Shown: in pieces, positions 14,777 through 48,057 of the stretch
Position numbering within the stretch: position 1 is the stretch's first letter
How the letters are laid out: every line of letters begins with the position of its first letter
Origin: Mizuhopecten yessoensis
Lineage: Eukaryota
Length of the DNA: 64,000 nucleotides
NCBI RefSeq assembly: GCF_002113885.1
Contig: NW_018404512.1
Location: 374,740-438,739, forward strand
Direction: 5' to 3'
Notes under the pieces: generated by a model
Told to the model about the DNA's origin: nothing
Database searches by the model: none
Seen by the model: the letters and a program-made list of their open reading frames with translations, nothing else
Made by a program: the position numbers and the translations under genes

Positions 14777-15322
14777 ATGAATGAGCAAGTACTAGGACTT
14801 TTCCAGGCTGATCTGATTGTTCAGCATCATGCCTACATCCGTGCCCAGGCCGAGGTCCTGCAGGAAAGAAGGAGGCAAAGGGCCCGAAGAAGATATAGCA
14901 AGAAGCGGTTCTGGGTGAGGACCTGGTTAACAGAAGATGAGCGAGTCTCAGCTGGCCAGTACAACAACCTTATGGTCAAGCTCCGGAACGAGGATGTACA
15001 GTCGTTTACTAACTACCTGCGCATGCCTCCAGACATGTTCCAATTCCTGCTCAACCGGCTGACGCCTCGCCTCCAGAAGAAGGACACCAAGTTCAGACGA
15101 CCTCTGGAACCAGGGCTGAAGTTGGCTGTGGTACTCCGGCACCTGGCTACTGGGGACAACTACCCAAGTTTGCAGTACAGCTTCAGAGTGTCCAGACACA
15201 CCATCGCCAGCTTTCTGCCAGATGTCTGTCAGGCCATCATCGATGAATTTGCAGAAGAGGAGGTCCAGTGCCCCGTCACCCCCGATGAATGGAAAGAGGT
15301 GGCCCTGCAGTTCCAGAGGAGG
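14777..15322 (+). pseudogene. Harbinger (HARBI1/ALP1-like) transposase, N-terminal half only
   Basis: FWVRTWL..GQYNNLM..LR.ED..SFTNYLRM....F..LL..L.PRLQKKDTKFRRPLEPGLKLAVVLRHLATGD.Y.SLQYSFRVS..TI..PVTPDEWKEVA..F.RR. Similarity stops just before the expected WNFP..GAIDG catalytic block. Confidence 0.88.
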
Positions 15323-15880
15323 ACCAAACTTGGACCTAGTGCTCCTGTACCATTGTTTGAGATGGCTGCCCGTCAACCCCATCTTCTGGCCCTGCTCTTC
15401 CCACAAGAGGTCCTTCTCAGGTGTCTTCCTGTAGCTTTCATGGCGCGTGTTCCAGACTTGTGGGAACTCTCGGAGCCAGTCACAGACGGCTTGCTCTTGT
15501 TCGGGAGTGAGCACCACCTCTGCGGTCTTCTTTTTCTTCTGGGCTGGAACCTCCGTGTCATCTTCTGAAGAAGTTGCACCATTAAAATACTCGTCCTCCT
15601 TCTCAGCACCAACGTCTGCCTCCTCCATGGCCTCGGCTACAATATCTTTATTGCCACGTCCACGTCCACACCCTCTGCTCCCTCCAACACGACCACGACC
15701 TCTTGGATGCTTCCCTTGCCCAACGATGGTTATCACCTGGCCCACACTTTCAACAACTGGCTGGACCTCTACCTGGTGCTCGTCGTCTCCTGTTGGAGTG
15801 TCTCCGGGCTGCATCACGGCTTTGCCCTTCGTCTTCTTTATTGCCTGTCTTAACGTTTTTCTTGATTTCTTTGGTGGCAT
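15323..15880 (-). pseudogene. Harbinger ORF2 MADF/Myb-SANT DNA-binding protein, C-terminally truncated
   Basis: Starts MPPKKSRK, then an RG-rich and acidic linker, then the MADF signature EQEQAVCDWLREFPQVWNTRHESYRKTPEKDLLWEEQGQKMGLTGSHLKQWYRSTRSKFG. A TATAAATA box lies about 50 bp upstream (15932-15939, minus strand). Confidence 0.85.
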
Positions 15881-19286: not shown

Positions 19287-21356
19287 AGTTTAACATATCT
19301 GTGTCACTCTACATCAGGAACCTGTTACCATAAAAACAATTCAATTTTTTTCACTTGACCATTAACAATGCTATTTACATCAAGATTTTGTTTATCCCTT
19401 TGCATCACGACTTTGTTTCTATCACTTACTGATTTCAATGCCTCTCGATATCAGTACCCTGTTCCTCTGTAAGCAAGCTTATTTCACCCTTAATCAGGAC
19501 CTCTCAATAAAGAATTTCAATGCCTCCAAATTATAGAGTTTTGCCTTTCGCTTAATCATCATATTGTTTCGCTTTATCAAGACGTTGGTATCGTTAACCA
19601 CTTAAATCTCATTTCATATTTCAATTGTCTCTCTACATGCGATTTTTGTTCTTCACAAACGATGTCAATGTCTCGTTAAATCAGGACTTTGTTAACATTA
19701 AATCATTTAAATGACTATTGTATTCCTATACCAGGACCACAAATCTTTGGCAATGTGTCTATCGTCTAAGATATAGTTCTCAATAAAATGAAATGTCCTT
19801 TTTGGGTAAAATATTTATAATAGTTTTATACCCTTACATTAGTTTTCTGCTTAGTTCCAGGTGTTGCTTGTTCACTCATGATACCGGCAGGATACAGACG
19901 AGAAAATGCTGGATAAACAGAACATAATAAAACAGGTGAAAGTAACACGGGATTTGTCATTCTCTTTTTACAAATATTCATGGAGAGACGCTCCTAAAAC
20001 AACCAAATGATGCGTTTATTCCAGAAATAGTCTAAGCTGCCTTACCGCTGTCCTTTGTATATCTATAGTGAACACTTCCTCGACGTTGACTGTAAACTGA
20101 CGATCGAGTCAATGACGAGTGTTTAATTCAAAGGGAAGGCTGAAAAATATAACTGAATTAATTATCCTATTCTAAAAGTTTTCCCAAAGACCAACAAATA
20201 GACATATTGACTGAGCCTGTGAATACAGCAGGAGACACTATAAGACACGAAGGTTTAAACGATTTTTAAGCCTGATAAATTGGAGAGTTTTATGAGGTGA
20301 ACATCTCGCAAGGTAAAGACGCACCTGTACGGGAGAACAACGAGTCAACACTTTATATGAGTTTTGTCCTAGTGCTAGCTCTAGCCATTCAGGTACTGCC
20401 ATGGACCGTAAAACCTGAAAGGTAAGGACGGGGAGGGTCGCTTGCGATACGCTCATCATCATACGGGGCCTCACAAGGGGAACGACTGGAATTGTATACA
20501 ATGGTATCATTTATTCTTGAATAAACCAGTGCGAGAAAAAAGTTATAAGTATTCTCAATAGTTATGCTAAAACATATCTATAATGTTTGGACAATCGAAT
20601 GTGTATCTCACTTTACTTCGACCTTCTACCAAAGAACCTCTTTTTAGAAAAATTGTATGTCTATATTGAAGCAATTCTTTGTTCATCTAATATGGTATTT
20701 TGTTTATTGATATTGGTATTGTTCTAGATCGGACTTGATGTACCCCTAGAGGCCCCTCCCTGACGGAGGAGCTGGGGATGTGGCGGTCGTTAATGAAGAG
20801 CGCGTCAGAGCAGTGACAGGGATTAAGTCGCGGTACACCAAATGAACACCTCAGTCGACAAACGTGTGCTCATGAATGCAGCACTAAACACCGCCTAAAC
20901 CCAGGTAAATATCCACATTGATTCGTGTTCCCATCGAAATTCTTTAACGGATATACAGCAACATGGCGGCGTATTGTGTACCTCACAGCAGCACATTGAA
21001 TTGACGGGTAGTTAAACCTTACCGCTACCGTGCATGGATATGAGATTTGTATTTGACAATTTGGTTGACATTGTTTTACTTGTAAACTGGTGAGACAATG
21101 ATGTGATGTGTGAACATCCAGGACGATTGGACGTGGTCGTGCCTCGTTATGCTTCGAAGGACTTGAGTCTCTCCAGCAGTCAGAAGCCCAGGCAATGTGT
21201 TTGAGACACAATTCATCTTAAATTTATATTGAAGTTCGATGACGTTTGATATCAACGAAACTTACTGTTTGGTACAAGTGTGTGTTGTAGTATGGAATTT
21301 GGACACGCTCATATGATATAGTATTTTAAACCTGTGAGCTTCAGTGTAAACTCAAA

Positions 21357-22463
21357 ATGACTAGCGTAATGTCTCTGCCTTTCTTACCGGAAGTGGGGGA
21401 GCCAAGGAATGCAGTTAGCTCACGACCTCACGATTCCGAAACTTCGAACTTACTCAGTTTTGTGGACATGGCGTCTAGCAACATCAAACTTGCTTTGGAC
21501 AAACCTTCCCGGTCAAAAAGAAAAGTGAACCACAGAAAATATTTACAAAAGCAGCTAAAGCGGTGCGGAAACTCATCTACTTCTCACTCAGAGGGCAGGC
21601 AAGTCGACATACAGGGCGCATTGTGTAATGGAGGCCAAACGAAATGCTCGCGAAAGGAAACAACGCAAATAGGACTACAGATCAAGTCCCTCCAGGCATT
21701 GTTTGACCCTAAAACATTACACGAAAAGTGTTGTACCGACCAAACGACAAAACCTACTTCAACTACTAAAGTTCCGCTACGAAAACGCAACTTGCCTCCA
21801 TCATTTTTTATTGAACCCGCGTCTAGTTTAGAGGGAATAGATCCTGACCAAGTCTTACAGGCCACAGAGAACACACATACAGACTTACAGTTATGCTCAG
21901 ACGTGACAAATCATGAATTTCCGGCTGACACGCTGGATTCAATACTCGGACAAACCGAGCTACAGGAACTCCTCGCCGGACCATGGACTGACTCCATTCG
22001 GGACAATTTCTCCATGCCTCGTTGTGACCACAGCCTCGATAACTGTAGTCCTCGTTCATTCTCTGACAGCTCCGACGGTATGTCCAGTAGTGCGTCAGTG
22101 TCACCGGGAATTCCCGGCCAGAGTTCAGATTGGATCGCAAACTTTCTTTCACAACAAACTGGAAACTTTCAAAACTCATCAATGTTTGCAGACGGATATA
22201 CATCCGCTCAAAATCCGTTAATTCCTATTGGTGATAGCAGAATAGGGGATGTAACGGACAGCCAGTCCCTTGAGGACAGACTCTTTATCGAACAGACATT
22301 CCCAGGACAGACATTTTCTGGTAGCAACGGGACTCCATGTGACACGACTCCTTTACCAACATTTCCTCAGGCGTTTTGTAGTAGTGCTTCACTTCAGGAA
22401 AACTTCCAGAACGTCTACCCATGGTCAGATGCACAGATCCAACCATGTTACACATACTTATGA
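21357..22463 (+). CDS. FAM181: FAM181 family protein (TEAD-binding), intronless, 368 aa
   Basis: Diagnostic [39 protein letters not shown], plus SLQALF and [16 protein letters not shown] motifs. Confidence 0.93.
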
Positions 22464-28236: not shown

Positions 28237-31200
28237 CTATTCAAAGTAGTACGATGATATATTTTCCAGAATCCTCATCATGTTCTCCTTCTCTTTCAGG
28301 TAAAAATGACCTCCGGGTAACATTTTAGTGGTCACTTTTCCTTTGGTCAAATCTGCCCAAGCTGAAGAAAAGAAAAAGAACAGATAGATCACCAATATGA
28401 AATGTCAAAATCGATACTAGCAATAGTGTTCACAATGAAAATAGGTGTTTGATAATAATAATTGAAAAACCACTACATTATTTTGGAGACTATTCTGAAC
28501 GACTCCTGGAAGAACTAGGTCTCTGGAAGTCTCCATTATTTTGGGAGGCGCAGAAACCGGACTCCTATATATCTCTTTTAGTTTTGGGGTCGTAATTGTT
28601 GAAAACCTTTTATTTCCCTTTCATTTCATAATTTACCTTTTCACCACTGTAGACCATAATGGACTCATCCATATCAATGCATGGTAGAGTCTACTAAAGT
28701 TACATAGGGTTGAAAGGGTTAAGCGAATATAACGAATGTTAGAGTAGTTCATCATTTAATATTTCAGCAGTTATTTCCCTTGTAATGGTAAAGTGAAATC
28801 AACATGGTAACATATGGTTGTGATTCATAACTGCCTACCTTGTAGGATTTATTACCTATGTTAAATGTTGTTGTAAAGTCTACCTTTATGGACTATGTCG
28901 TATGTTGTGTTTACAGGCCTAAATTGTAGCTTGTGTTTTAAAACCTTGTTGGTTGTTGTGTAAATTGACCTACATTGTACATTGTAGATTGTGTTTGATG
29001 GTTTTGTTGTGTGTTGTGTCGATAGACCTGCATTGTAGCTTGTGTGATATGGTCTTGTGTGTTGGCAGGAGTGGCTCAACATCGAGTGCGATGCAGGTGA
29101 GCTCTTAAAAAATTAACACTGTTTGGCAAGTTATCTGGCCCCACTAAACGAGTGAACGGTTGCAGTACGACGGAAAGACTCCATTTCACGTGTACATGAA
29201 CTCATTACCAGTATCAGATTATATGCTCCCATCAAGACGATTCCGGATGAAGTCAGTGACATATTATATGAAGACGTGAACGGTTGTATCATTCCAAAGC
29301 GTCACCGAGATATAGCAACAGTGTTCTACTCCAGAACAGTGCAGAAGATGGCAGCAAGTTACAACCACTATCTGCCGCTTCCCTACAATGCACCCTAGCT
29401 CCACTCGAATTTCATCGTCAGAAAAAAAGGTCGGGCTGGAAGTACATGTCACGAATGTCAGGTGTGACGCCGAAAGATGGACTGACCAACGCCGTATTTC
29501 CGTCTATGATACAGCCCTTAGTTCGCTACCTCAAGTTCCGATTGGCGTCCCTCTAGGCGCCATACCAACTTAGAACAGTTACAGAAAGTCATAATCTGCA
29601 ACTGGTTGTTACTTCTTCTGAGCTTCAGTTTACAAAGAAAGTGGTACGGCTCTGACCTAGCAAATGAAGCATAAGGCAGCATGGCTTGGCTGCAAATATG
29701 TCTACATCATACACATCTACAAGCGTAAAGAAAATCGCTAGGACTGCAACGAACAACATATTATAACTACCCTGTCCGTCGCAGGCAAGAATCCGACTAG
29801 AAGCTTGAGTATGGTCTCTTACAAGAGAATCATAAAGGCTTCTGGGGAAAAGTCATGGTTATCTATATGGTGTTTACTGCTAGACAGCTACAATAGAAGT
29901 ATCAGAAACAGAATGTGACATGTACCCTGCACATGGCTAGCAGACCAAGGAACCTGTTTGCAAATATTGCCATTGAAGAATCATGGCGAAGTATGATGTC
30001 CGTAAAGAATGAGATTCTGCAACAGCTTTATGATGACATATTTGCAAGAGTCTGTGACAATGAAGAAACTGATTAATTTCCTGTCTCAAACGGAGTGAAG
30101 CAGGGCTGTGTCCTTGCTTCAACCCGGCAGTTAAATGTGTTCTGTCATGATGATTGATGTTTTCAAAACACCAGACACAGTCATCGGTATTCGATGGCTC
30201 ACTCTTAAACCTCAGAATGCTTAAACCAAAAACCAAAGTTATGACAGGGACTTCTTCTTTGCTAATGGCTGTGTCCTCGATGGTGCCTTCGACGCAGACA
30301 TGCAGTGTTGATTGGTTATTGGAGACTCGAGATCAGTACAAAGATGGATGCATAAAACATCTAGAAAAGAGATACGTTGAACCCAACATTAGCATCAACG
30401 GGCAACGACTGAATTGTGTGGACATGTTTACCTTAAATAACAGCACACTTTCTAGAAACGTTGTCATACAAATTTAAAAGTTAATGTCGAACACGGGTGT
30501 TGCCTTTGGAAAACTCCACAAGAACAGGTGTAGCGGAACAGCTTAGAAACAAGGATCAAAGCTATAGTTTTCACTTCTCTGCTGCATGGCTGCACATCAT
30601 GGACGGTCTATCAGCGTCATGCGAAACAACTGAGCGACTTCCATACCAACTGCCTCAGAAAAGTGGGCAGACCAATTCCTATAACCTGATAAGTATATTA
30701 AACTGTACTAGGTTGCCAAGCATACCCACCATCATTTTTGTGTCATAGCTTTGCTGGCAAGACATGAGGTTCACACGCCAGTCGCCGGCTGCCAAGAAGC
30801 TGTTATATTGCGAACTCCAATGAGGTTAATTCATCCAGGGAAGCAAAAGCCATAAGAACACATTAAAAGCTTCGCTTAAATACTTAAACATCAGCCATGT
30901 CACCTGGGAAAAAACAAAACTTTATTGCCACACAGCTAGAAAAACGTCCTGGTGCGGATTGGCCTGACAAGTTGTCAGTGCAACATAGAACCTGACCCCA
31001 AACTTAGGATGACTAGATGGATCTCATTGTTTTTGACAGACCAAAAACTTCTTTCGGGTAATTTCCGAGCTATTACTTGCATGTAGTGAGGTAGGTTTAA
31101 ATTTGAAATCGACTACACCAACATTGTAGGTTGTTTTTGTTGGCCTACCTATCTTGTAGATTAATTTTGATGGTCTATATTAAAGACCATGTTGGGAGAG

Positions 31201-33990
31201 CTACCTTGTAGTCTGTGTTTGATAGCCTACCACATAGGTTCAGTATGATGGTCTGTTTGAAGAGCTACTTTGTAGTCTGTGTTTGATAGCCTACCATGAA
31301 GGTTATGTTCAATGGTCTGTATGAAGAGCTACCTTGCAGTCTGTGTTTGATAGCCTATCTTGTAGCCTGTGTTATTTGGCCTACACTTTAAGCTGTGTTT
31401 GATAGCCTTACTTGTAGCCTGTGTTTATTGGCCTACACTATAAGCTGTGTTTGATAGCCTTACTTGTAGCCTGTGTTTATTGACCTACACTGTAAGCTGT
31501 GTTTGATAGCCTTACTTGTAGTCTGTGTTTATTGACCTACACTGTAAGCTGTGTTTGATAGCCTTACTTGTAGCCTGTGTTTATTGACCTACACTATAAG
31601 CTGTGTTTGATAGCCTTGTAGCCTGTGTTATTTGGCCTACACTATAAGCTGTGTTTGATAGCCTTACTTGTAGCCTGTGGTTATTGGCCTACACTATAAG
31701 CTGTCTTTGATAGCCTTACTTGTAGCCTGTGGTTATTGGCCTACACTATAAGCTGCGTTTGATAGCCTCACTAGTAGCCTGTGTTTATTGGCCTACACTG
31801 TAAGCTGTGTTTGATGGCCTTACTTGTAGCCTGTGTTTATTTACCTACACTGTGAGCTGTGTTTGATAGCCTTACTTTTAGCCTGTGTTTATTGGCCTAC
31901 ACAGTAAGCTGTGTTTGATAGCCTTACTTGAAGCCTGTGTTTATTGGCCTACTCTATAAGCTGTGTGTGATGGCCTTACTTGTAGCCTGTGTTTATTGCC
32001 CTACACTATAAGCTGTGTTTGATAGCTTTACTTGTAGCCTGTGTTTATTGGCCTACACAGTAAGCTGTGTTTGATAGCCTTACTTGTAGCTTGTGTTTAT
32101 TGACCTACACTATAAGCTGTGTTTGATAGACTTACTTGTAGCCTGTGTTTATTGGCCTACACTAGAAGCTGTGTTTGATAGCCTTCCTTGTAGCCTGTGT
32201 TTATTGACCTCCACTTTAAGCTGTGTTTGATAGCCTTGTAGCCTGTGTTATTTGGCCTACGCTATAAGCTGTGTTTGATAGCCTTCCTTGTAGCCTGTGT
32301 TTATTGACCTACACTGTAAGCTGTGTTTTATAGCCTTACTTGTAGCCTGTGTTTATTGGCCTACACTATAAGCTGTGTTTGATAGCCTCACTAGTAGCCC
32401 GTGTTAATTGATCTACACTATAAGCTGTGTTTGATAGCCTTACTTGTAGCCTGTGTTTATTGACCTACACTATAAGCTGTGTTTGATAGCCTTACTTGTA
32501 GCCTGTGTTTATTGGCCTACACTATAAACTGTGTTTGGTAGCCTATTTTGTAGGTAACGTTTGTTGGTCAATATTGTGTGTTAAGTTTGAAGGCCTACCT
32601 TTTAGGTTGTGCTTGATATCATACTCTCCATCTGTTATATCTATTGGGCAGGTCAGAGGTTTATCTCCAACAAGGTCATAGCTGCAAAACCAAGATACTT
32701 TATTAGACACAAAACATTCCCTTTTATCCTTATAGTATTTAGGAATTAAAAGATTTTAATTCAGGTAATTAGAAACAGATGTGAGTGTAATTATATTGGA
32801 ATAGAAGATATAAGAGTAAATAAATGAGAGGAACAATTTAGCTGGAAGACGGGCTGAAATAAGATGATACTAGGAAGAAAAGGAATGGTATCAGATGGTA
32901 AAGAAGATTGGCAGAATAGGAGGATATTAGGGAAATGCATGGTATCAAGTGTTCTAGAACGAAGAATCTTAAGATGGGCAGGATTGGTGGATATTAGAAG
33001 AGAAAGGTATAGTATCAGGTGGTCAAGAATAAGGGAATTTTAGGATATACAGGATTGGAGAGTATTTGGAGGTAATTAAGACATGGTATCAAGTGGTCCA
33101 GAATTGAGAATTTTAGAATGGGCAGGCTAGGAAGATATAAGGAGGGAAAGGCATAGTATCAAGTTGTCCAAAATAAGAAATTTATCAGATTGCAAAGTTA
33201 GGATGATATCAAGTGGTCCAGAATAAGAGAATTTTAAAATGGGCCAGAGTGTTTGCTATTAGAAGAGGAAGAAAGGTATTAGTGGATCAAGGGTGGGATA
33301 GTTTCAGATAACTAATAAAAGAGGAGATTTGGAGAGAAATGCAGGGTATTTGTAGGACAGGAATGAGAGAGTTGTAGATGTACAATTGCTGGGATAGAGT
33401 TCCATAAGAGAAAATAGGGAGAGGTATGCCTTAATGGGAGGTTTTCAGGATGGCTGGAAAGGAAGATAGAAGCAGTTTGCAGGGTATTTAGAGGAGGTGT
33501 TTGATTGAAATGTAGGAAAGGAATGAAATTGTGAAAAGGAAGAGGGCAGGAACTAAAAGGAAGCTGCAGAAAGCATAGCAGATAATTTACACTTACTCAA
33601 ATTGGTCTACTAGTTCGTAGTCTGCTCTCAAGGGAGGTAGAAACAGAGCCATGAGCTCCTCGCTTTTCAGAATTTCATCTGGAGTTCCACCTAATGTTTG
33701 GAGAAGAAACGGGGATCAAATAAGTACCCAATGTGGATCACATTTATAGAAGGTTACAAACTTATTTCTTGGTGGATATAAAGAAAATATTTATTTCTTG
33801 GAGGATATAAAGAAAATATGTCACACACCAGCACTTTTAAGCTACTAGTACATGGATACTGTAACCATTTGGTAAGATTTGCCCTGCTGGAACCTGATAA
33901 AAAGTGAAAAATTCTCAGCCCTGGTGCCATCTCAAATTTCAAATTAGTCCAAATAATGACATTTCTCAGGATCAAGAGTATGGCTGAGAT

Positions 33991-34027
<37 letters not shown>

Positions 34028-37000
34028 AAGGCAGACAGACAAGGTGATGGATGTGATAATACATCAAGTCAGTTATACCATTTCAAACTTTAAACTTACC
34101 CAGTTTCCTGAGAAAATCTTTGAATTCTGCATCATTGAGATTTCTCACATACACTTTATTCTTTTTTCTTTCTTCTGACTGTAAGAATAACAAATGATAA
34201 TCATGAAAGCCTAGGTTATAGATGGCTTTGTGCCCAAGATAGTGTTGTTACCTGCCATCTCTCTATGTTATAGTATGGCGTAGCTTAGTTACATGTTAGA
34301 CTGTGATCTCTACAAACACACAGGCATAACTTCATACTAAAGAAGGATCAGAGACTCTAAACGAAATCACACAGACACGTTAAAGCTCATACTTACATGG
34401 GGAGCTTAGACTTTAGACAAAATCATACAGACACATTTAAGCTCAAACTTACATGGGGAGCAGAGACTCTAGACAAAATCATACAGGCACATTTCAGCTC
34501 AAACTTACATGGGGAGTGGAAACTCTGGACAAAATCATACAGACACGTTTAAGCTCAAACTTACTTGGGGAGTGGAAAATCTGGACAAAATCATACAGAC
34601 ACGTTTAAGCTCAAACTTAAATGGGGAGTGGAGACTCTAGACAAAATCCTACAGACACATTTCAGCTCAAACTTACATGGGGAGCAGAGACTGTAGACAA
34701 AATCATACAGACCCATTTCAGCTCAAACTTACATGGGGAGTGGAGTCTCTAGACAAAATCATACAGACACGTTTAAGCTCAAACTTACTTGGGGAGTGGA
34801 AACTCTGGACAAAATCATACAGACACGTTTAAGCTCAAACTTACATGGGGAGTGGAGACTCTAAACAAAATCATACAGACACATTTAAGCTCAAACTTAC
34901 ATGGAGAGTAGAGACTCTAAACGAAATCACACAGACACGTTAAAGCTCATACTTACATGGGGAGCTTAGACTCTAGACAAAATCATACAGACACATTTAA
35001 GCTCAAACTTACATGGAGAGAGGAGACTCTAAACGAAATCACACAGACACGTTTATGCTCATACTTACATGGGGGGTAAGACTCTAGACAAAATCATACA
35101 GACACGTTTAAGCTAAAACTTACTTGGGGAGTGGAGACTCTAGACAAAATCATACAGACACATTTAAGCTCAAACTTACATGGGGAGCAGAGACTCTAGA
35201 CAAAATCATACAGACACGTTTAAGCTCAAACTTACATGGGGAGTGGAGACTCGAAACTAAATCATACAGACACATTTAAGCTCAAACTTACATGGAGAGT
35301 GGAGACTCTAAACGAAATCACACAGACACGTTTAAGCTCATACTTACATGGGGGGTAAGACTCTAGACAAAATCATACAGACACGTTTAAGCTCAAACTT
35401 ACATGGGGAGTGGAGACTCGAAACTAAATCATACAGACACATTTAAGCTCAAACTTACATGGAGAGTGGAGACTCTAAACGAAATCACACAGACACGTTT
35501 AAGCTCATACTTACTTGGGGGGTAAGACTCTAGACAAAATCAAACAGACATGTTTAAGCTCAAACTTACATGGGGAGTGGAGACTCTAAACGAAATCACA
35601 CAGACACGTTTAAGCTCATACTTACATGGGGAGTGGAGACTCTAAACGAAATCATACAGACACATTTAAGCTCAAACTTACATGGGGAGTGGAGACTCTA
35701 AACGAAATCACACAGACACGTTTAAGCTCATACTTACATGGGGAGCAGAGACTCCAGACACAAACAAGCGCTCTGGCTCAAGGTTGTACTCGCTCTTCAG
35801 AATTCTTGCTACTTCAAAACACATCATTGCTCCAAGACTAAAACATTTGATATAAAACATATATGTATTCAAAAGTACTTCTCTTTTAGCTAGACATATT
35901 GCAGCCTCCCAAAACACACACGCATACACTACATGCATGCATCTTGCACACAGGGGAGGCCGTCCTTAAATGACCATAGCTGTTGATAGGGTGTTAAACA
36001 CTCCTAAACAAAACAAAACAAAACTTTTAGCTAAAAGCTTGCTAGAATATATCCAATCCATGGACTAAACAACAATATTACTTCAATAAGTAAAACTGAC
36101 TGATTCCAAGAGGAACTTAACTCATTCACCCCTGAAGACACATTTGAACTCTTCCAATTCAATGGTTGGAATAGTTCATTATGAATCTTCAGGGGTGAAT
36201 GAGTTAATATTGTGGTAAAGATTATCAAGCAAAATCTGACAAGAGTGCCATTCCTTTCACTATCAAAGTCAATTATGACATTATGTTTCAAGCATGGTGA
36301 AAAGTGTTAAAACGGAGATGTTTAAGTTTTCAATATTGAAAACTTTCATTGTATGATAATGTATGCATTTTAATTCTTCAAGTGTTTTCAATGTGTAGGA
36401 AAAGTTATGATTTGTGTTCAATATTTATTGTGGAAATATCTTTGATGGCATGCTGCTGCAATACATATAGTTAACACTGACTGTATACTGCTACGACACA
36501 TAGTTCATTGTGAGTCAATACTGCTTAGACACATAATTCATTGTGAGTCAATACTGCTACAACACATAGTCCATTGTGAGTCAATACTGCTACAACATAT
36601 AGTCTATTGTGAGTCAATACTGCTTACACATATAGTTCGTTGCGAGTCAATATTGCTTAGACACATAGTTCTTTGTGAGTCAATACTGCTACGACACATA
36701 GTCCATTGTGAGTCAATACTGCTACAACACATAGTCCATTGTGAGTCAATACTGCTACAACACATAGTTCGTTGTGAGCCAATACTACTACAACACATAG
36801 TCCATTGTGAGTCAATACTGCTACAACACCTAGTTCATTGTGAGTCAATACTGCTAAGACACATAGTTCATTGTGAGCCAATACTGCTAAGACACAAAGT
36901 TCATCGTGAGTCAATACAGCTACAACACATAGTTCGTTGTGAGTCAATACTGCTACAACACCTAGTCCATTGTGAGTCAATACTGCTACAACACATAGTT

Positions 37001-37805
37001 CATGGTGAGTCAATACTGCTACAACACATAGTTCATTGTGAGTCAATACTGCTACAACACATAGTTCGTTGTGAGGGATCAATACTGCTACAACACATAG
37101 TCCATTGTAAGTCAATACTATTAATTGTACAACACATATGCCATGGTGAGTCAATACATATTTTTTTGCGAGTCAATACTGCTACATTAGTTCACGATAA
37201 GTCAATATATTTACACATGCATATTTTCATACTGATTAAGGAAATGTGTTCAGTTATTGGCAAAATCTATTTTTACAGTCCATTTAAGGTTGGATAGTAT
37301 ATATGATCATGTAAATATGTACAGACCTGTGTCCCCAAAAAGCAAAGGGCCGCTCCTTACACTTTGGTATAAGGGCTGAAATGATTTCCTTTTGCACTGT
37401 GTCCAGAGAGTGACAGCAAGGTTCCTTAAATCTTCCTTCTCGTCCTGGCAGTGTAAGGCCAGTCACTGTAACAGATACACTCAACACTACAACATTCAGC
37501 TAATCCTACATCAATATATATATATATATATATATTTCAAATATACTAATGGGGTCTTTTTTTCAAGCTTATGGTTCTTGACAAGACTTATCTACAGTTA
37601 ACTCTTGCTCATACATTGTGTCTATGTAAAGTTTCTGAAGCTGGAGCTGACTGTTACAACCAAAATAGTCACCTTCAATAGACTCTGGGAGCATGTTTCC
37701 CCAGTTTGCATAGAAGTTGGATCCTCCGCCTGCCCAGGGGAAACAGAACAGCTGACAGGAGGCTGTTGGTCTGGGAAATCTACAGTTCAAGACTTTGTTT
37801 GCCAT
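28237..37805 (-). CDS. OLAH: Type II thioesterase (S-acyl fatty acid synthase thioesterase, OLAH-like), 7 coding exons, 250 aa
   Basis: Exons 37673-37805, 37327-37465, 35738-35837, 34100-34178, 33597-33690, 32599-32681 and 28237-28361 are all GT-AG and phase-compatible (753 nt). Motifs: LFCFPWAGGGS, LPGREGR, FWGHSLGA (catalytic Ser), LGGTPDEIL, LRADY, PLTCPI, LPGGHFYL (catalytic His). Confidence 0.92.
28632..28722. mobile_element. Short hairpin MITE, diverged relative of 36117-36207
   Basis: ttta-ccttttcacc ... ggttgaaaggg-ttaa, with 83 bp between the TTWA flanks. Confidence 0.5.
29080..30950 (+). mobile_element. Decayed RTE-clade LINE (APE + RT remnants) in the last OLAH intron
   Basis: Fragments in shifting frames: YAPIKTIPDEVSDILYED (about 29222-29275, APE), WTD (about 29480), NGVKQGCVLA (about 30088-30118), DGSLLNLRMLKPKTKV (about 30193), WTVYQRHAKQLSDFHTNCLRK (about 30600), PKKLLYCEL (about 30792). 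Confidence 0.8.
31190..32620. repeat. 52-bp (2 x 26-bp) minisatellite abutting OLAH exon 6
   Basis: Unit ttgtagcctgtgtttattggcctacactataagctgtgtttgatagccttac, about 23 clean copies with degenerate edges. Confidence 0.9.
32820..33560. repeat. Degenerate purine-rich repeat (about 60-bp period)
   Basis: Recurring ggtatcaagtggtccagaataag...aattttag.atgggcagg. Confidence 0.55.
33990..34024. repeat. (GACA)n microsatellite
   Basis: About 8 copies of GACA. Confidence 0.9.
34350..35755. repeat. 56-bp minisatellite overlapping the OLAH exon 3 splice donor, about 25 copies
   Basis: Unit gagactctaaacgaaatcacacagacacgtttaagctcatacttacatggggagtg. Confidence 0.93.
35951..36022 (+). mobile_element. Probable SINE 3' tail fragment
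   Basis: taaatgaccatagctgttgatagggtgttaaac followed by an (AAAAC)n tail. Resembles mollusc SINE 3' ends from recall only, not searched. Confidence 0.35.
36117..36207. mobile_element. 83-bp MITE with 18-bp perfect TIRs and TTAA target duplication
   Basis: TTAA-ctcattcacccctgaaga ... tcttcaggggtgaatgag-TTAA. Confidence 0.75.
36480..37205. repeat. 33-bp minisatellite in OLAH intron 2, about 20 copies
   Basis: Unit cacatagtccattgtgagtcaatactgctacaa. Confidence 0.9.
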
Positions 37806-39179: not shown

Positions 39180-42100
39180 ATGTGGAGGTGGCTCAGTGGA
39201 ATTCCCAGAGGTAAGTAAACTTTGGTTTGTGTTTTATTCCAGAAAAAGAGGATGAATTTCTTAAACGTTTTTTTTAAGGATATTTTCATCTTGAAGTAAG
39301 GTGTGTCACACTCGAGTAAAAAACATAACAAAACATCCAAGGTGACCTGGATGGCCATGCTATTTACTTCCCTTATATCTAATCCTTTGGTTTTAAAATA
39401 TGTTTTTGAAGTCTAGACGAACTATTTCATTACTGTTTAAAATGGATACTAAAAATTGGTTCTATTGCTAGAATGTTAAATGATGGCCTTGGAAGTCCCA
39501 AGTTCTACTGCAACAGCACTATGATATTCTTGCACATTTGCGCTTCATTTCCACACAGAAATACGTACATGTACACGACTACTGTAACAGCTAGACACAA
39601 CTTTACTCCATTTAACAATCCTATACTACATTTATGTGTGTGTGCAAATTACAATACAGTTGTTGTCATCTGCACAGATTTGTTCAGATTGAACAAATAC
39701 CAATTGGCAAGTATCCAAGCTTCTAAGTATATACTTATATAGGGGTTTGTGTACACAGTAAAAAGTTCTTCGACCTAGATCTAGATAATACAGTCATAAT
39801 ATAGGGGCATATTACCCAATAGAACAACAATAATGATATTAATAATACTATTTATTCAGGTAAAAGGCAGATCATACACATATCACATTTTGCAGATTGG
39901 ACATAAATATAAATATTATTACAGATGTTATATATTTATAAGTTATTTATGCCATAAAACTGGATTGGATAAGATTAATTTAGGCCTTTACCTGGGATGA
40001 CCCAGAAAGCCAACTTGTGGCTTAACTCCAATGGGGTCCCTTAGATCTAAATAAATCAATCCAATTAACAACTTCTCCAATTTCCAAATTATTGCACATT
40101 TTTTGTTCATGTATATTTGGTTTCATGTTTCATTTTTATTTTTTATACTGACGTCACGCAGGGGTTGACAATAACTTTTAATAGGTGGTGGACCGCAGGT
40201 CCACCAGCTTTCTTGATCTTGTGGACTTGTTTAATTTCTGATGGACCTGAACAATATTCTTAGATATTAGCCCCACTGCAATATGGAGTTAGGGGATGGG
40301 AGGGAGATTAAGATATATTGTCAAAATTTTCCTAAAATTTCACCATATCATTATTATGGCAGTAGTTATTTTAAGTCCCCTACAGTCTTTACTTTTGATA
40401 TTTTGTTGTTTCCTTATCAGGAAATCGTGGACTAGTTACATTGATGAGGGACTAGTAAATAATCTATTTTACCAAACAAACAAAGTTTGTGTCTAACCAT
40501 GTTGTTTGTCTATTATATTTTCTATCCAAATTTTGTGGAGGTCAGCTGATGTATATATAAAAGTATCTCTGCTAACTTTGTTGATAGGCAAATATTTTCT
40601 GCACAACTGCTTTCGCTTTGAAAAGCTCACAGATGCAGTTATCACATTCGGAAGTTTTGTGCCTTCACTTTATTCAATCCACTTTGTGGTAGTAACAACG
40701 TGCCATTTCTGCTCTCAGATTTGGTTTATAGAGTATAATATTCGTCTAAAGAAGTACTAGTAGGCTCCTCCTTGTAGCTTTTTTGGCAGTTATATATACA
40801 GAACTTTAATTTGTACGTATAAGTTCAAACTGTTGCCCCTTTTCTGTTATGTATGTTGGAGTTTTAAGTTATTAAAAAGTGGCTAAAAGTTTAAATAAAT
40901 TGTTATCCCTATGGTAATTATATACTTGCACAAAAAATTAAATGAGGACAATTTAACTTGTGGGATGATTAAAATTTTAAAACTTGACTGGTTTTTTATG
41001 TTTAATTTTGAATTAGATACCTTTGACATATATACACTGTATTTTAACATTTTGTTACTTTTTACTGCAGCCCTCCGTCACCACCTGCATGGTCCCAGAG
41101 CCTCAGCTTCTGGTGTTTGTAAAGAAGACGAATTAGACGAAGCAAAGAAATGTGCAGAGAGCCGACGCCAGCAGTACAAAGCCCAATACCGGTACATGTC
41201 AACCTGTTGTTAAAAAGAGTGTTGTTCTGCTAGGAAGTAGATTATTATTGTATACATATATATTCATACACACAAGTTCATAATCTATCAGAGCAAATTA
41301 AATGCTAGAAGGAAGAGGTTACTGTTAATTGTTGACCTTGGTTACAATTAGTCTTGGTTACAATTAGTCTTCTTGTGTAATGTTCAGCTTCCAGTGAGCT
41401 AAAAGAGAAGCCCTCTTTCTGAGTCGGCAACAGCAAAATTATACCTTTTTGTGTAGTTTTTAAGTTGGTGAAATATACTGTAAATGGGTGGATGGCCAAT
41501 CTTTAAGCATACCTGTCCAAACAACAGTGTTCAGTTGCATATTTAATACATATACCCTAAATAAAGAAAGAAACAATGATGTTACAGGCTAGGAGCTGGG
41601 ACAAACCATCAGGAAAGTTCCCATGATGACAATCAATGGCAACAGGAGTCGGGGACTGACAAAGAGAAAGGCTACCGACACACACCTAATTTCTGGACAC
41701 TCTTTTGTGGACCAGGATCATGTGAGGCCTTTGGATGGGTGAGTGTCATCACACATTTTTACTGGATCATTTGTTTTCCCCAAGAATGGGAAAGGGAGAT
41801 AATCATACATTCTGGACTTAACATAAATTCAACTGAAGCTTTTATATACCTTCTTTTTCTGATCAAAGAACAAGATATTTAAAAAATATTTTAAAGTATT
41901 TTTCAAGTACAGTATTATAAGTAGTTGTATGTTAACTTTTATTCCCCATATGTAAATTGGCTTTATGTTTCTGTGATGATTGTTGATGTTACTGTGCTGT
42001 TTGTTATTACCATGGTGTTTGTTGGTGTCACTAGGGGACGATTGTGGTGGTTGGTCTACAGCTTACCAGGTACCACCTACTGATAGACAGATGGGAGAAA

Positions 42101-45100
42101 TCGAAGGACAAAGATAAGCACTCCCAATGTCTGCTCTTCAAGATATCAAGTGTGCTGCCCCAACCTTGCCTGTGTAAGAAATCTATCCTTGAAACAAATG
42201 AAACCCCTCCTTCAGATGGAAAGCGTACGAGCCCCGTGCCAGACCTGTATGAAAGATATGGGCCATTATTGAATTTTAGTACTCAAGACACCAAGGTATG
42301 TAGTGCTTGTCAGGCAATGGCAAGGTGAATCTTTGCATTGATCAAAGTCTATCCATGTGTTATAATCAGGTACATGTAATAAGTAACAGGTAGTAAGAGT
42401 TACAAAAATGTTTACTTTTAATAATACATAATAAATATCAATACCTTGCAATTTGAATTGTAGCTTTACTTTTAGAGGTGCACTTAACTTAAAGGTGAAT
42501 CAAGCAAAGGAAAATAGGTTCATGGAGAGTTTAGAATTATAATCAAAGCATTGGTGGAATCTGTTTCTGTTCCAGTGATATTTAACTTCTAATAACAAAA
42601 CTTTCCCAATCTCAATAAACTTTTTTCTCAAATGTCTATTCATATAGCCCATTGTTTTCCTACCTGTACCTTTACGGTACATATCCTATATTCATGACCT
42701 CTGCTATCTTCTGTGGTGTATTGTAATCTTCGTGCTGATATCCTCTTAGGATGTGGCTGTGAAGAAAGATGCTGGGGTTGTGGAGGAGGAAAAAGACAAG
42801 ACCACAAGAGGGTCTTCCTTTGATCCTTTAGAAACAGTAATGAAGGAGTTTGAAACAGTTTGTCGTACATATGCAGCCGTTGGACAAAATATTGCTGGGC
42901 TTAAGAAAGCTTTGGCAGGTCAGCTGACCGAGGCTGCCAATCACTGGGCAGAAGCTAGTAGCTCAGCGTACGGCAAGGCAAGCTTCAATCTGGGTCTGTG
43001 TTACGAGACAGGGCGTGGGGTAAAGAAAAACATGAAACAGGTGAATATTTCTGAGGTTATGATACTACTCTAAATTTTAGTTCGATATGAAAGATCTATT
43101 TTTCATATCATAATGTGTTAATGATGTCATTGTTGTGTTGGAAAATGTTTTGTTTGTTTTTGGGTTACATTTAAATTGCATGTTTTTCAGGTGTCACTGA
43201 ATTACGAATGTACTGTTGTTGATGACATTATCTTCTGTGTTGTGTCAGTTGTTTAGCTGTGTACAGATGTGTGTAGGTATTTGTACATTTGGGCAAATCC
43301 GAAATATTTGAAGTTAATAATTTCACGCTGAATGCATACATCTGCAAATTAGCAGGGATTATTACTCAAAATAACTATATCTCTAAATATGATATATACA
43401 GCTTAAATGAATGGTTTTAATGTCTCAAATAATGCACTATAATAGTTCCCGATAATCTATGTTTAATCTGACATTGACCTGATTGGCTGTTTGTGAGTTG
43501 GGTCTAGACAACATATGCTTGCAGTGTAAATTTACATCTGATGACTGAGTACAGAATAAAAGAAATAAACAATTGTAGCAGTCATAGCTGTAAGGATTCA
43601 AACTAAAGCAGTATATGTTGTTTCAACAAGTTTAAATTTTTACTTTTAAAAGGTAGTTTGTTCAAAAGAGAAATAATGACTCCATTAATCAGCTGTGAAT
43701 ATTTGCAACACATTTTGGAAAATCAACATCTTCTTTTTTTTTAGCCCAGAAACATTTATTAATGCTTTACATCTGTGCTTAATTAGCCCAATAGTGTTCA
43801 GGTTAGTTTAACATTATCACTGAAATTGAAAATCTACATTCCCTATCACATTAACTGTACAAATGTGTATGCAGGCTGTTAAACTGTACGAGCGAGCAGT
43901 GAAGGAGAACCACCCTCAGGCCATGTACAACCTAGCCCTACTCTATCTTGGGGAGGAAGAAGGACTGACATCGCCTAAATACGGTCTTCAACTCATGGAG
44001 AAGGCTGCAGAGCTTGGACTGGCACAGGTAGGACCCGGTCTCTCACTACCACACAAAACAAGAACCAGTGTGTCGGGCTTGACATATGTTAAAAGAATAA
44101 TTCAAGTAGACAGACTTCATATCTTTAATTACCGGTATACATGTTTAGGGATATCCAGTTGAAACACTCTATCATCTACTTTTTAGTCCCCCATCGGTTC
44201 CCGAGGGAACTATAGGTTTGCACTCTGTCCGTCCTTCTGTCCAAGAAGTTTGTCTGTGGCATATATCTTCTATACTTTTTCACCTCGAGTAACCAGTTTT
44301 GGTGTAAAAGGACATCTTGGGATGGCAGAGTGAAAGATTTAGGTCACTGGGACCTTTGACCTTTACTTTTGATTTTTTTTGTCCGGGGCATATCTTCTAT
44401 ACTATTTCCCCTGGAGTAACCAGATTTGGTGTAAAAGGACACCTTGGGACGACAGAGTGCAAAAATTAGGTCACTGTGACCTATGAATTAACCTTTGACC
44501 TTTACTTTTGAAAAAGTTTGTCCGTGCATATCTTCTATACTATTTCACCTTGAGTAACCAGATTTGGTGTACAATGACATTTTTGGATAGTCAGTGTAGT
44601 TGTTCCAGTATGCACCACCCACCAGACTTAATATCCCAGTATCTGGCCCCACAAGTACAGCTATTGCAGTGTCTAGACACCTTCAGTGTGGTTGCCCCAG
44701 TGCTCGGTGGTGGCTTGACTAATGAGGCTTGACTAGATAGTGAAATGCAGCCTACAGCCACTCGCTTGACACAGAGTTCAATTCATTTTCTCTTTCTTTG
44801 GTGGGCGTGTTTTAAATTGTTATTTTTTTATATAACATGTACAATGGATGATTTACCTTGTTGATGTTCCAGGCCCAGACCTACATGGGAGTACACATCA
44901 TGGGGCAGAAACAGTCCTGTCTGGACAAGGCTGTCGCCTACTTCAGAGCTGCTGCTGGCCAGGATGTGAGTTACCTCCCTTCATTAGCAGTAGTTAATTA
45001 TACTATTCCATGCCTATTAAAAAACAAGAAGATGGAGTTTGACATTCATTCATTTCCACTTCCTTTTCACCCTTATACTGCTGAGGTTTCTTTCTGACCA

Positions 45101-46687
45101 CCTGTCTGTGATGACCCCTCTGGCTTGACAAAAAGATGATTTCCTGTCAGTTACTACACACAAATCTCATTAGTTTAAGTCTGAGACAGGTAGTTAGGAA
45201 ATCCAGGGACCTAATGGCATACTGCTTATGTTCAGTGCTGTTGCAAGGGTAATGCTATTGTTTAATTTATGTCAAACATAGTGCGTCTATATTTAGCAGT
45301 GACTGGGCCCCATTTTGTAATGTCAATATTTGACTCCAATAATAATTGTGATGCATTTGTTTGGCTCTCAGATCTTAAAGTGTATTTCTAGGTTTTTAGC
45401 ATTTGGCTGGAATAGTATGTTTAGCATTGAGATGAAATAGCATTATGTTTAGTACTAGTTGTAAGGAAGTCTCTACTGTTACAGGACTCTGATGGAGAGT
45501 ACTTCCTGGCTCTGTGCTACGAGCAGGGACTTGGAGTGGAGGAGAACAAGTGCCGTGCGGCAGACCTGTACAGCCAGGCTGCTACCAAGGGACATGATGG
45601 TGCCATCTACAATCTAGCATTCTTCCATGAACATGGACTAGGAGGTAGGATTTTAATTTTTGTTATTGCGTCTTGCTTTTCCTACCTCATTTATAGTAAA
45701 ATAGAGATATTTTGCTATCAACTTCTAAACATTCAATGTTAATGTGAAGGAATTTAAAGAAACGGAAATCTAATAGACCTCTTATTTAGGAGACATTCTC
45801 TATTACTTCGGCAAAGGTAAAGTATTTCATAAAAATAAAAATAAACGTTTGTTGGTTAACAGGACTACCAGAGGATCAAGTCACGGCCATGACCTTATAT
45901 AGGAAAGCTGCCAATGCAGGAAATGAGAGTGCTCTCTACCGTCTTGAGGGTCCACGTCGCCCAACCTTTCCCAACTGGAAAGGCAAGTTGTTTATTTGCT
46001 TTGTCGATGAAAAGATTAAAAAGCTAAAAATGAACTGAATCTTTTTCAATAGTAAACTTCATTCATCTATTTAAAGTTTGTTGTTTATTTGTAAAAGTAT
46101 TGTTTGAACTAACACTAAAATTTGTCATGTAAAAAACTGGTTATGAACAGGTACAGCTGTCAAGCTTTGGGTAGAGAAGGAATGATAAAACTGATCCTAG
46201 CAATGGTGTTGGGGAATCCTTTGGTAAAATGGTCTTTTTTCTCCATCACACAGAACAATACATGTATGACTTTGTTGAGGAGCCACAGCTAGAGGTACGA
46301 GTCCCCATGTCCATCCAGGAAAAGCCACCAGCGGTGAAGGTACAGCCTGTTGTACAGGTTCCATCATCTTTCTCCTCTCCCTCCCTCACCGACTATGTAC
46401 GCAAACACCTAGAAGATCTAGATGTGAAAAATGATGTGTTACAGCTCGATGTAGCCTCAATGTCAGTCCTGGAGCCTAAATTTGGAAAGTCCAAGAAACC
46501 AGCTTTCAGAAAGGATAAAGTATTCTTTACTCTAGGAGCCAGTGATTCTAGTGAAGCTGGTGGCCCCTTTTGGGCAGACATTGATGATATGTGGGAGGAA
46601 AATGTGATAAATGACAAAACTCACTTTTCTGCCTTGTTACAAAGAAACAATACTATGCCTGATGTGAGGTCTGTTACCTGCTCTTAA
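39180..46687 (+). CDS. DELE1: DELE1 (death ligand signal enhancer), mitochondrial SEL1/TPR stress relay, 10 exons, about 604 aa
   Basis: Exons 39180-39210, 41071-41191, 41588-41738, 42035-42295, 42750-43040, 43875-44027, 44873-44965, 45485-45644, 45863-45982 and 46254-46687 are phase-compatible (1815 nt). [12 protein letters not shown] presequence, [16 protein letters not shown] segment, SEL1 repeats ([54 protein letters not shown]) and SFSSPSL motif. Confidence 0.88.
44180..44595 (+). mobile_element. Helentron-associated non-autonomous element (HINE/DINE-like) fragment
   Basis: tttttagtccc start, ctgtccgtcc microsatellite, and about 130-bp core repeats containing ggtcactg.gacctttgacct. Confidence 0.55.
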
Positions 46688-48057
46688 TGTCATGGGAACA
46701 TTAGACACCTAATTCTTCTGTTTCATTCGAATGTCATTTATCAACATATCACTCTATGTATGTTAAGTTCAATAAGTTGTGTGTATGAACATTGATGACT
46801 TTTCATGAACATAGGGCAGACCACTTTGTGTTGCAGGAAAGTTATACATAAACCAAGCAGTACTCCATAACATATAACACAGCAATTAAGCTTCTAGCCC
46901 TAAGGTGGGCAGGCTGTTTATTTGGCAGAACTGTACACAATTTTTCAAACAGTTTAACCTTCATTTGACCGCTTCATATTTGATTATTTGATATTAAAGA
47001 ATAGATATTATTAAATGATTGTTCATATTGCGTCTTAAAACTGACCAAAACACTGATGGGATTACAGTTATTTTGATATTCTGTACTTTTTGCCTAATAC
47101 ATACGGTACTACTGGTTTAGGTACAACTTAGTTCTATCACAAAGAAATGAAATGTTCAATTGTTCTAAATGGTTGAGAGCAAATCATGAGTCAACAACAT
47201 TAAGAGTTGTGGATTAACTATATATATATATTTCACAGGCAAATAAGCCCAAGAACTAAAATGGAACATTGTTACTGATTGTCTATAAACATGTGTTCCA
47301 ATAGGGAACACAATCATATTAACAAACTTTAAAGTCAATCTTACTAACATTGTTACTGTTTTGTAGTCTACATATTTTTGAGAAATCCATAGAATATACC
47401 TTTAAAAGTGCCATCCTGTCAATATTATTATATAAGACCAAAATGATATGAATGTGTAGATGAGAAAATACTGCTGTTAGCTGTATCGGTAATATATTAC
47501 TGCTAATTAACAATTACTTAAACCGGATGTAAGTGATTGGTTTCAATATGTAGATAAGATGTAAAAGAGTGTCCGTCTTCTTGTCGACAACACATTGAGA
47601 CTTTTGTTTTTTAAACCATCAGAAAAAATAAGTCTTATTTTGTGGTTATGTTTATTGTGATCACTTGAAGAAAGATCAGAGGAGACACACATTTTCTTTT
47701 CAATTTCGATAGAAAAGGAAATATTTGATAGACCTCTAAAAGAGTGATTAAGAAACGAAGACTGACAATGTTTACATTGTATGTGGCCTACATAGTGATG
47801 TGTACATTGTTTATCGACTCCATAGCGATGTGTACATTGTTAATCGACTCCATAGCAATGTGGAGCTTGGTATGGCATTCATAGTAATGTGCTTGTATTC
47901 TTTAAGAACAATTTTGTTATTTGCCTTCAGTCATATCTTTGCTAAGAATTTTCTTTATGATTTTCCCTTATACCTGTCAAAACCAAAACTCCTGATGGGA
48001 ACCTATACTTCTCATTTAAGACAGATCACTGCAGTGGAATGAGCAAGATAACTTATA

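What the first reader, a model, noticed from the sequence alone, without database searches (positions are those of the whole stretch)
34350..35755. About 25 tandem copies of the OLAH exon 3 donor, each shaped like an AG / 16-nt micro-exon / GTAAGT cassette
Seen: on the transcribed strand the true junction is GAGTCTCTGCTCCCCAT|GTAAGT. The 56-bp unit reads GTAAGT...GATTTCGTTTAG AGTCTCCACTCCCCAT|GTAAGT. It therefore contains an intact donor, a pyrimidine-rich AG, and a 16-nt copy of the exon end. Read-through of the first donor hits TGA after 9 codons. Inference: use of any downstream donor, or inclusion of a 16-nt unit, would give a frameshift or premature stop. Either the array is a tunable poison element or the first donor is strongly preferred.
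Basis: partly seen in the sequence, partly recalled or inferred. Interest (0 to 1): 0.7.

Follow-up and report, generated by a model that had tools for sequence, protein, structure and literature searches.

The report
Repeated splice donor, first one used
In a scallop-type thioesterase gene a 56-base repeat has copied an exon's end and splice signal 24 more times into the intron, but the RNA reads seen splice at the first signal, so it is likely a tolerated repeat of a kind already known from human and lancelet genes and not a regulatory switch.

Summary
A locus-specific 56-bp minisatellite (34351-35760, 25.2 units) starts in the last 23 nt of coding exon 3 of a single-copy thioesterase II (OLAH-like) gene. 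It repeats the donor 24 times: 23 copies keep GTAAGT, and 19 of 24 are intact AG/15-16 nt/GT cassettes. Read-through meets TGA after 9 codons. The poison-element reading has no support. At the exon 4 acceptor, 52 of 52 listed loose-end reads (3 of 4 RNA runs, separate studies) give the true exon 3 end as consensus, agreement 1. That caps alternative steady-state use at about 6%. The donors are not clearly over-conserved, and the units lack eMIC micro-exon marks. This is the F7-IVS7 / amphioxus 'mirage' kind of donor-spanning minisatellite, where the most upstream donor wins. It is common here: three more donor-like arrays lie in this window. The scan noted the same thing before on other DNA of this genome (SOUL, ANKLE2). 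Donor motifs are not enriched in 140 repeat families over 1 Mb. Verdict: ordinary, a new member of a known kind.

The parts
35738..35837 (-). Coding exon 3 of a thioesterase II / OLAH-like gene (100 nt, ends ...VSAPH, phase 0)
   Evidence: RNA depth; its 3' end seen joined to exon 4
34351..35760 (-). 56-bp minisatellite, 25.2 units, whose first unit begins in the last 23 nt of exon 3
   Evidence: single locus in genome search
35732..35737 (-). Authentic donor CAT|GTAAGT, the one used
   Evidence: loose ends at 34178 equal window 35738-35767 (checked)
34391..35681 (-). 24 downstream donor copies at 55-56 nt spacing; 23 GTAAGT, one TTAAGT (34620)
35708..35710 (-). In-frame TGA, 10th codon after the true donor; included by use of any downstream donor
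35682..35699 (-). First AG (35699-35698) plus 16-nt pseudo-micro-exon (35697-35682); the AG ends only 40 nt after the upstream donor
   Evidence: no joint to it listed
35069..35529 (-). Three 55-nt units with in-frame 15-nt pseudo-micro-exons (35529-35515, 35362-35348, 35083-35069)
35746..35754 (-). GAGTCTCTG in exon 3, repeated at the far end of the array (34357-34349); candidate seed direct repeat (inferred)
   Evidence: sequence; role inferred
34100..34178 (-). Coding exon 4 (79 nt); acceptor joined to the true exon 3 end
28237..37805 (-). Whole coding gene: exons 37805-37673, 37465-37327, 35837-35738, 34178-34100, 33690-33597, 32681-32599, 28361-28237; 250 aa, one stop at the end
   Evidence: 213/250 and 214/250 identical to scallop proteins P0002, P0003; single locus; PF00975

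Best explanation
The array is a minisatellite that repeats the exon 3/intron 3 boundary; sampled mRNA joins the first donor to exon 4, and the 24 copies are likely bystanders removed with the intron. It likely arose by a tandem duplication across the boundary of a short intron (about 218 nt without the extra units), possibly seeded by the 9-nt repeat GAGTCTCTG at both ends, and then expanded by slippage or unequal exchange (inferred). The first donor likely wins because it is transcribed first and closes a normal 100-nt exon defined with the real acceptor, as shown for the human F7 intron 7 VNTR (inferred by analogy). The internal AGs are likely ignored because each would define only a 15-16 nt exon without micro-exon enhancer features. 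Any leak to a downstream donor would carry an early stop and would likely be cleared by NMD, as splicing noise and not as a control.
For: Shown: one search lists 24+17+11 = 52 loose-end reads at the exon 4 acceptor in 3 of 4 runs from separate studies; the consensus equals the true exon 3 end, agreement 1, median lengths 82/38/82 nt. One unit-type 30-nt end would have lowered agreement to 0.976-0.994. No joint from the last donor copy (34396) to exon 4 and none within 35640-35840. Depth on unit 1 was 0 in 3 of 4 runs and 2 in one, no higher than the unspliced background in ordinary intron 4 (depth 1-3 in X24). Intact 250-aa ORF, ungapped against two scallop orthologues. No clear selection on the motifs: 1 variant allele in 6 donor columns, 3 in the 2 AG columns, 29 in the other 48; 5 of 56 six-column windows are as conserved. 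TGC in 1 of 24 units, branch-like motif in 2 of 24. Three more donor-like arrays in the window. Precedent: PMC1557585, PMC3087553.
Against: Depth is low: 0 of 52 only bounds alternative use below about 5.6%, assuming independent, informative reads; mates may be double-counted and short ends cannot discriminate. The reads are steady-state without NMD block, so poison products would be under-counted. Tissues are unknown, so neurons may be missing. The animals' array alleles are unknown. under-counts the 3' end of exon 3 (X19 depth about 4 there, against 24 junction reads), so its blanks are weak, and 524 of its loose-end rows were not shown. Run X23 had 2 reads on the array and only about 3 on exon 4 against 13-16 on exon 5, unexplained. 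The donor core is among the least varied parts of the unit. In IFI6 and CBS the next two pseudo-donors are used (as cited in PMC1557585).
Confidence: 0.85

Rival explanations
1. Leaky but unselected: the second or third donor is used at a few percent, as reported for IFI6 and CBS, and the products are destroyed by NMD. Longer alleles might lower mRNA slightly as a side effect.
For: Copies match the true donor at -3..+6 in most units. All extensions carry a stop more than 220 nt before the last junction. Two array reads in X23. Precedent in the introduction of PMC1557585. Compatible with the best explanation at low levels.
Against: 0 of 52 listed junction reads show a unit-type end. The X23 reads fit array-internal reads stopping at the array edges (bin sum 112 = 3x26 + 2x17; one read ends at 34351), i.e. 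likely pre-mRNA or DNA.
Confidence: 0.3
2. Tunable poison element: array length sets the share of transcripts sent to NMD and so tunes thioesterase level, under selection.
For: Every downstream donor includes an early stop. 23 of 24 donor copies are intact, and the donor core is among the least varied windows (5 of 56).
Against: No alternative junction listed. A stop within ten codons of an intron start is unremarkable. Donor conservation is not significant. Similar arrays occur in unrelated neighbouring genes. In F7 identical pseudo-donors do not compete (PMC1557585).
Confidence: 0.05
3. Micro-exon reservoir: the AG/15-16 nt/GT cassettes are included in some cells, such as neurons, with the three 15-nt units adding five residues in frame.
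For: 19 of 24 intact cassettes, 3 in frame, giving a 255-aa open product in silico. Acceptor pyrimidine content is like the gene's own acceptors. Neuron-restricted micro-exon programmes exist in non-vertebrate bilaterians (PMC8797185). Neural tissue may be unsampled.
Against: Units lack the eMIC marks listed in PMC8797185: TGC in 1 of 24, pyrimidine runs of 3-4, branch-like motif in 2 of 24. A strong donor lies only 40 nt upstream of each AG. No such read listed. Four homologues show no insertion at this junction. Two consecutive 16-nt pieces create an in-frame stop (3x16 test).
Confidence: 0.04

Closest known systems
Human F7 intron 7 37-bp VNTR (Borensztajn et al. 2006, PMC1557585; read parts 1 and 4 of 6: abstract, introduction, end of results, start of discussion)
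   Same: First unit spans the exon-intron boundary; identical donors repeated in the intron; only the most upstream donor is seen in use.
   Different: Here 24 copies rather than 4-8, about 23 exonic nt per unit rather than 4, an AG that outlines a 15-16 nt pseudo-exon, and a mollusc. Function of the pseudo-donors was tested in F7 and not here.
Amphioxus 'mirages' in Adh3 and globins BflGb6/BflGb9 (Ebner et al. 2010, PMC3087553; passages)
   Same: Minisatellite-like tandem copies of an exon-intron boundary in an invertebrate. The paper says many units hold AG/GT signals yet do not disturb regular splicing, and proposes them as raw material for new exons and introns.
   Different: Different phylum and unit size (10-72 bp in Adh3, 150-160 bp in globins). 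Length instability is reported there and untested here.
IFI6 (6-16) intron 2, CBS intron 13, LMNB2 and PDGF intron 4 minisatellites (seen only as cited in the introduction of PMC1557585; originals not read)
   Same: Donor-reiterating minisatellites; IFI6 has 25 pseudo-sites. LMNB2 and PDGF use only the authentic donor.
   Different: IFI6 and CBS also use the next two pseudo-donors; no such use was listed here at the depth available.
eMIC/SRRM4-dependent neural micro-exons (PMC8797185; passages)
   Same: Size class of the 15-16 nt pieces.
   Different: No UGC enrichment, long pyrimidine tract or CUAAY branch point; tandem-repeat origin; no inclusion seen.

Membership tests
Donor-spanning minisatellite (F7-IVS7 type / mirage) | Tandem array of minisatellite-size units | tested here: met
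   56 bp x 25.2, 87% matches
Donor-spanning minisatellite (F7-IVS7 type / mirage) | First unit spans a real exon-intron boundary | tested here: met
   Array starts at 35760, the donor at 35737 is used in RNA
Donor-spanning minisatellite (F7-IVS7 type / mirage) | Donor sequence reiterated in the intron | tested here: met
   23 of 24 copies GTAAGT
Donor-spanning minisatellite (F7-IVS7 type / mirage) | Most upstream donor dominates | tested here: met
   52 of 52 listed reads by consensus, 3 of 4 runs; minor use below about 6% not excluded
Donor-spanning minisatellite (F7-IVS7 type / mirage) | Copy-number polymorphism (VNTR) | not tested
Donor-spanning minisatellite (F7-IVS7 type / mirage) | Pseudo-donors become active when the first is destroyed | not testable with these tools
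   Needs minigenes
Regulated poison exon / AS-NMD switch | Alternative product carries a premature stop well upstream of the last junction | tested here: met
   Stops 222-286 nt before the last junction in silico
Regulated poison exon / AS-NMD switch | Alternative product is made | tested here: inconclusive
   None listed; low depth, no NMD block
Regulated poison exon / AS-NMD switch | Splice signals under purifying selection | tested here: inconclusive
   Within-array only: donor 1 variant allele in 6 columns, AG 3 in 2, rest 29 in 48; no orthologous intron available
eMIC-type neural micro-exon | UGC near the 3' splice site, long pyrimidine tract, CUAAY branch point | tested here: not met
   TGC 1 of 24, longest run 3-4, branch-like 2 of 24 (features)
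eMIC-type neural micro-exon | Neural inclusion | not testable with these tools
   Tissues of the runs are coded
Thioesterase II / OLAH-like (PF00975), host gene | Thioesterase domain, GHSxG motif, intact ORF | tested here: met
   (orthologue P0003 E 7.7e-44; window exon 1 alone E 1.1e-4, below the curated cut-off)

The most novel reading that the evidence does not exclude
The array is a length-variable splicing rheostat and micro-exon nursery. In neurons or under stress, or once NMD is blocked, downstream donors and 15/16-nt units are used in proportion to copy number, so that a repeat allele sets thioesterase dose or adds a five-residue insert. The four donor-derived arrays in two neighbouring genes would then mark a scallop-wide route by which donor-born minisatellites tune genes.
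Probability: 0.06. Interest if true: 0.6.

Novelty: new member of a known kind. Interest (0 to 1): 0.15.

Why it matters
As it stands, little: it is one more donor-spanning minisatellite. It suggests that the 'first donor wins' rule described for human F7 also holds in a mollusc against 23 equal competitors. Two full-text searches found no paper on such arrays in bivalves (0 papers; 4 listed, none on this by title or abstract start), in a library that lacks most subscription journals. Its use would be as a natural test locus: a graded donor ladder with a built-in stop, where NMD block and minigenes could measure donor competition. If usage scaled with repeat length, it would be a heritable, fast-mutating splicing dial.

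Tried and rejected
1) First read lay was swamped by dispersed repeats at 35874-36003 and 36117-36207; exon 3 loose ends were not among the rows shown. 2) The fall of depth toward the 3' end of exon 3 suggested truncation. Rejected: exons 4 and 5 are well covered and the junction reads exist. 3) Genome-wide bias of minisatellites toward donors: in 100 stretches (1 Mb, 5% N) of the same contig, 170 arrays in 140 unit families (kept: period 15-120, at least 4 copies, overlapping and low-complexity rows dropped), GTAAGT occurs in 6 of 140 against 5.6 in shuffles, and a broader donor set in 15 against 14.5. No enrichment; the test is blind to weak donors. Acceptor-like words were lower (5 against 10.4; 196 of 200 shuffles at or above), one of 8 patterns, uncorrected. 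4) RNA structure hiding the downstream donors: exon 3 plus three units folds no better than shuffles (z -0.90). 5) A database protein ending in the read-through tail: none at E 0.01 among 3 candidates (weak, it did not find the orthologues either). 6) Other alleles or orthologous introns: pattern scan of metagenome contigs, 0. 7) Higher-order period among units: no clear lag. 8) Recursive AG|GT splicing: no unit has AG directly before GT at the cassette. 9) PMC10078293 passages and the CBS search listing added nothing specific. 11) No earlier notes near this place.

Full report
Setting. The window is G000:C1185:374740-438739 of a 988-Mb genome. The finding lies in a minus-strand gene with seven coding exons: 37805-37673, 37465-37327, 35837-35738, 34178-34100, 33690-33597, 32681-32599, 28361-28237. 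Together they give 250 residues with a single terminal stop, 213 and 214 of 250 identical, without gaps, to scallop proteins named medium-chain S-acyl fatty acid synthase thioesterase-like (PF00975). All 7 matches of an orthologue in the genome fall at this locus. The host is therefore a scallop-type bivalve; an earlier, unchecked note names the Yesso scallop.

Observation. The array is real: 34351-35760, period 56, 25.2 copies, matching only this locus. It begins 23 nt inside exon 3. After the true donor at 35737 come 24 copies, of which 23 read GTAAGT and one TTAAGT. Each unit is 40 intronic nt plus 15-16 nt resembling the exon end. 19 of 24 units are intact AG...GT cassettes, 16 with 16 nt and 3 with 15 nt. 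Read-through hits TGA after nine codons. In silico, a 56-nt extension stops after 133 residues, a 16-nt insert after 136 and three 16-nt inserts after 129, all more than 220 nt before the last junction. A 15-nt insert leaves the frame open at 255 residues.

What the RNA shows. One search listed 24 runs, 6 of them raw RNA reads. I laid 4 of the 6, from four studies, each read to 18-24% of its length. On exons 4-5 with the last unit and a half, loose ends at the exon 4 acceptor number 24, 17 and 11 in X19, X22 and X24. X23 has no row (exon 4 depth about 3). In all three runs the consensus is the true exon 3 end (equal to window 35738-35767), agreement 1. Unit ends differ from it at 4-19 of 30 positions, so one full-length unit-type end would have given 0.976-0.994. 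Ends shorter than 9-18 nt mostly cannot discriminate, but the medians are 82, 38 and 82 nt. Zero of 52 bounds alternative use near 5.6% if the reads are independent. The control joint exon 4-5 shows in 29, 20, 3 and 21 reads; no joint from the last donor copy is listed.

On exon 3 with the first units, depth on unit 1 is 0 in three runs and 2 in X23, and none of the 15 joints listed lies in 35640-35840. The X23 reads fit array-internal reads that stop at the array edge (inferred from bin means, and a read-through reading is not excluded). An ordinary intron shows similar background (intron 4, depth 1-3 in X24).

Selection. Across 24 units the six donor columns hold 1 variant allele, the two AG columns 3 and the other 48 columns 29; 5 of 56 six-column windows are as conserved as the donor. 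The donors are neither being erased nor clearly preserved. The unit acceptor resembles the gene's own weaker acceptors in pyrimidine content, but lacks the marks of eMIC-dependent micro-exons described in PMC8797185 (passages): TGC in 1 of 24, pyrimidine runs of 3-4, a branch-like motif in 2 of 24.

Mechanism. Shown: a tandem array across the donor, and canonical splicing dominant in the sampled RNA. Inferred: origin by duplication across the boundary of an intron of about 218 nt, perhaps between the GAGTCTCTG copies at 35754-35746 and 34357-34349. The AG either comes from the intron flank of that repeat or from a G-to-A change in the copied exon; an array-free orthologue would tell. Inferred by analogy: the upstream donor wins by an oriented, first-come selection, as tested with 50 F7 constructs (PMC1557585, parts 1 and 4 of 6 read). 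From general knowledge: a 40-nt donor-to-AG gap is short for an intron, and 15-16 nt exons need dedicated enhancers.

How common. Of 6 intronic arrays tested in this gene and the RFC3-like neighbour, 4 resemble the upstream donor region beyond all 300 full shuffles: this one, intron 6 of the same gene (weaker: 8 of 300 reach it when the donor core is kept) and two in the neighbour. That looks like a cluster, but three of the four introns would be only some 100-220 nt without their arrays (estimated), so a founding unit easily covers a boundary. A survey of 1 Mb of the same contig found donor motifs in repeat units at chance level (6 of 140 against 5.6). One more likely case turned up among the 15 motif-bearing arrays (L024; no Pfam hit). 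Earlier notes of this scan report the same arrangement in SOUL and ANKLE2 genes (unchecked).

Comparison and verdict. It works like, and by the testable features is, a donor-spanning minisatellite of the F7-IVS7 or amphioxus mirage kind. PMC3087553 (passages) already notes that such units carry AG/GT signals without disturbing splicing. Polymorphism and the latent activity of the copies are untested. I found no bivalve report. New member of a known kind; interest 0.15. The poison or micro-exon reading stays open only for conditions not sampled (about 6%).

Noticed in passing
window 57035-57286 (-): 61-bp x4 array that repeats the donor ATAGAACAG|GTAAAT of an RFC3-like exon ending at 57278; five copies of the junction word counting the true one. 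The name RFC3 is recalled from the translation; Pfam gave PF13177 and PF13191.
   Followed up: partly
window 53957-56666 (-): 33-bp x81 array in the next intron of the same gene; the unit resembles the exon end GTTCAACA|GTAAGT at 56738 (score 42, 0 of 300 shuffles) and holds 52 GTAAGT on the sense strand. It fills almost all of a 2.9-kb intron.
   Followed up: partly
window 31190-32544 (-): 52-bp array in intron 6 of the thioesterase gene looks like an older, diverged copy of the exon 6 end and donor (0 of 300 full shuffles; 8 of 300 with the core kept).
   Followed up: partly
L024:8285-9604 (-), G000:C1185 about 178-180 kb: 80-bp x16 array starting at a CAG|GTAAGT after a 59-residue open frame that looks, from recall, like an adenylate-forming enzyme exon; no Pfam hit at E 0.01.
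   Followed up: partly
window 36117-36207 and 35874-36003: Two dispersed repeats in intron 2 draw thousands and hundreds of RNA reads from other loci; the first has inverted arms like a small non-autonomous transposon.
   Followed up: no
window 34100-34178, run X23: Exon 4 depth about 3 against 13-16 on exon 5 in this run only, with 2 array reads; small numbers, possibly noise or read filtering.
   Followed up: no
window 37826-37806 (-): An acceptor-like TTTTAG lies 21 nt before the start codon, so a non-coding first exon may exist and 'exon 3' may be the fourth exon.
   Followed up: no
window 14723-15934: Two facing ORFs (281 aa +, 328 aa -) that resemble, from recall, the nuclease and DNA-binding pair of a Harbinger-type transposon.
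   Followed up: no
window 41000-46700 (+), 21330-22463 (+), 2058-3200 (-): Other genes seen in ORF lists, named from recall only: a DELE1-like SEL1-repeat gene, a FAM181-like single exon and an NHL/TRIM-like exon.
   Followed up: no
L007-L106 (1 Mb of G000:C1185): Minisatellites are dense: 170 arrays covering 137 kb; acceptor-like words in units are somewhat rarer than in shuffles (5 against 10.4, uncorrected).
   Followed up: partly
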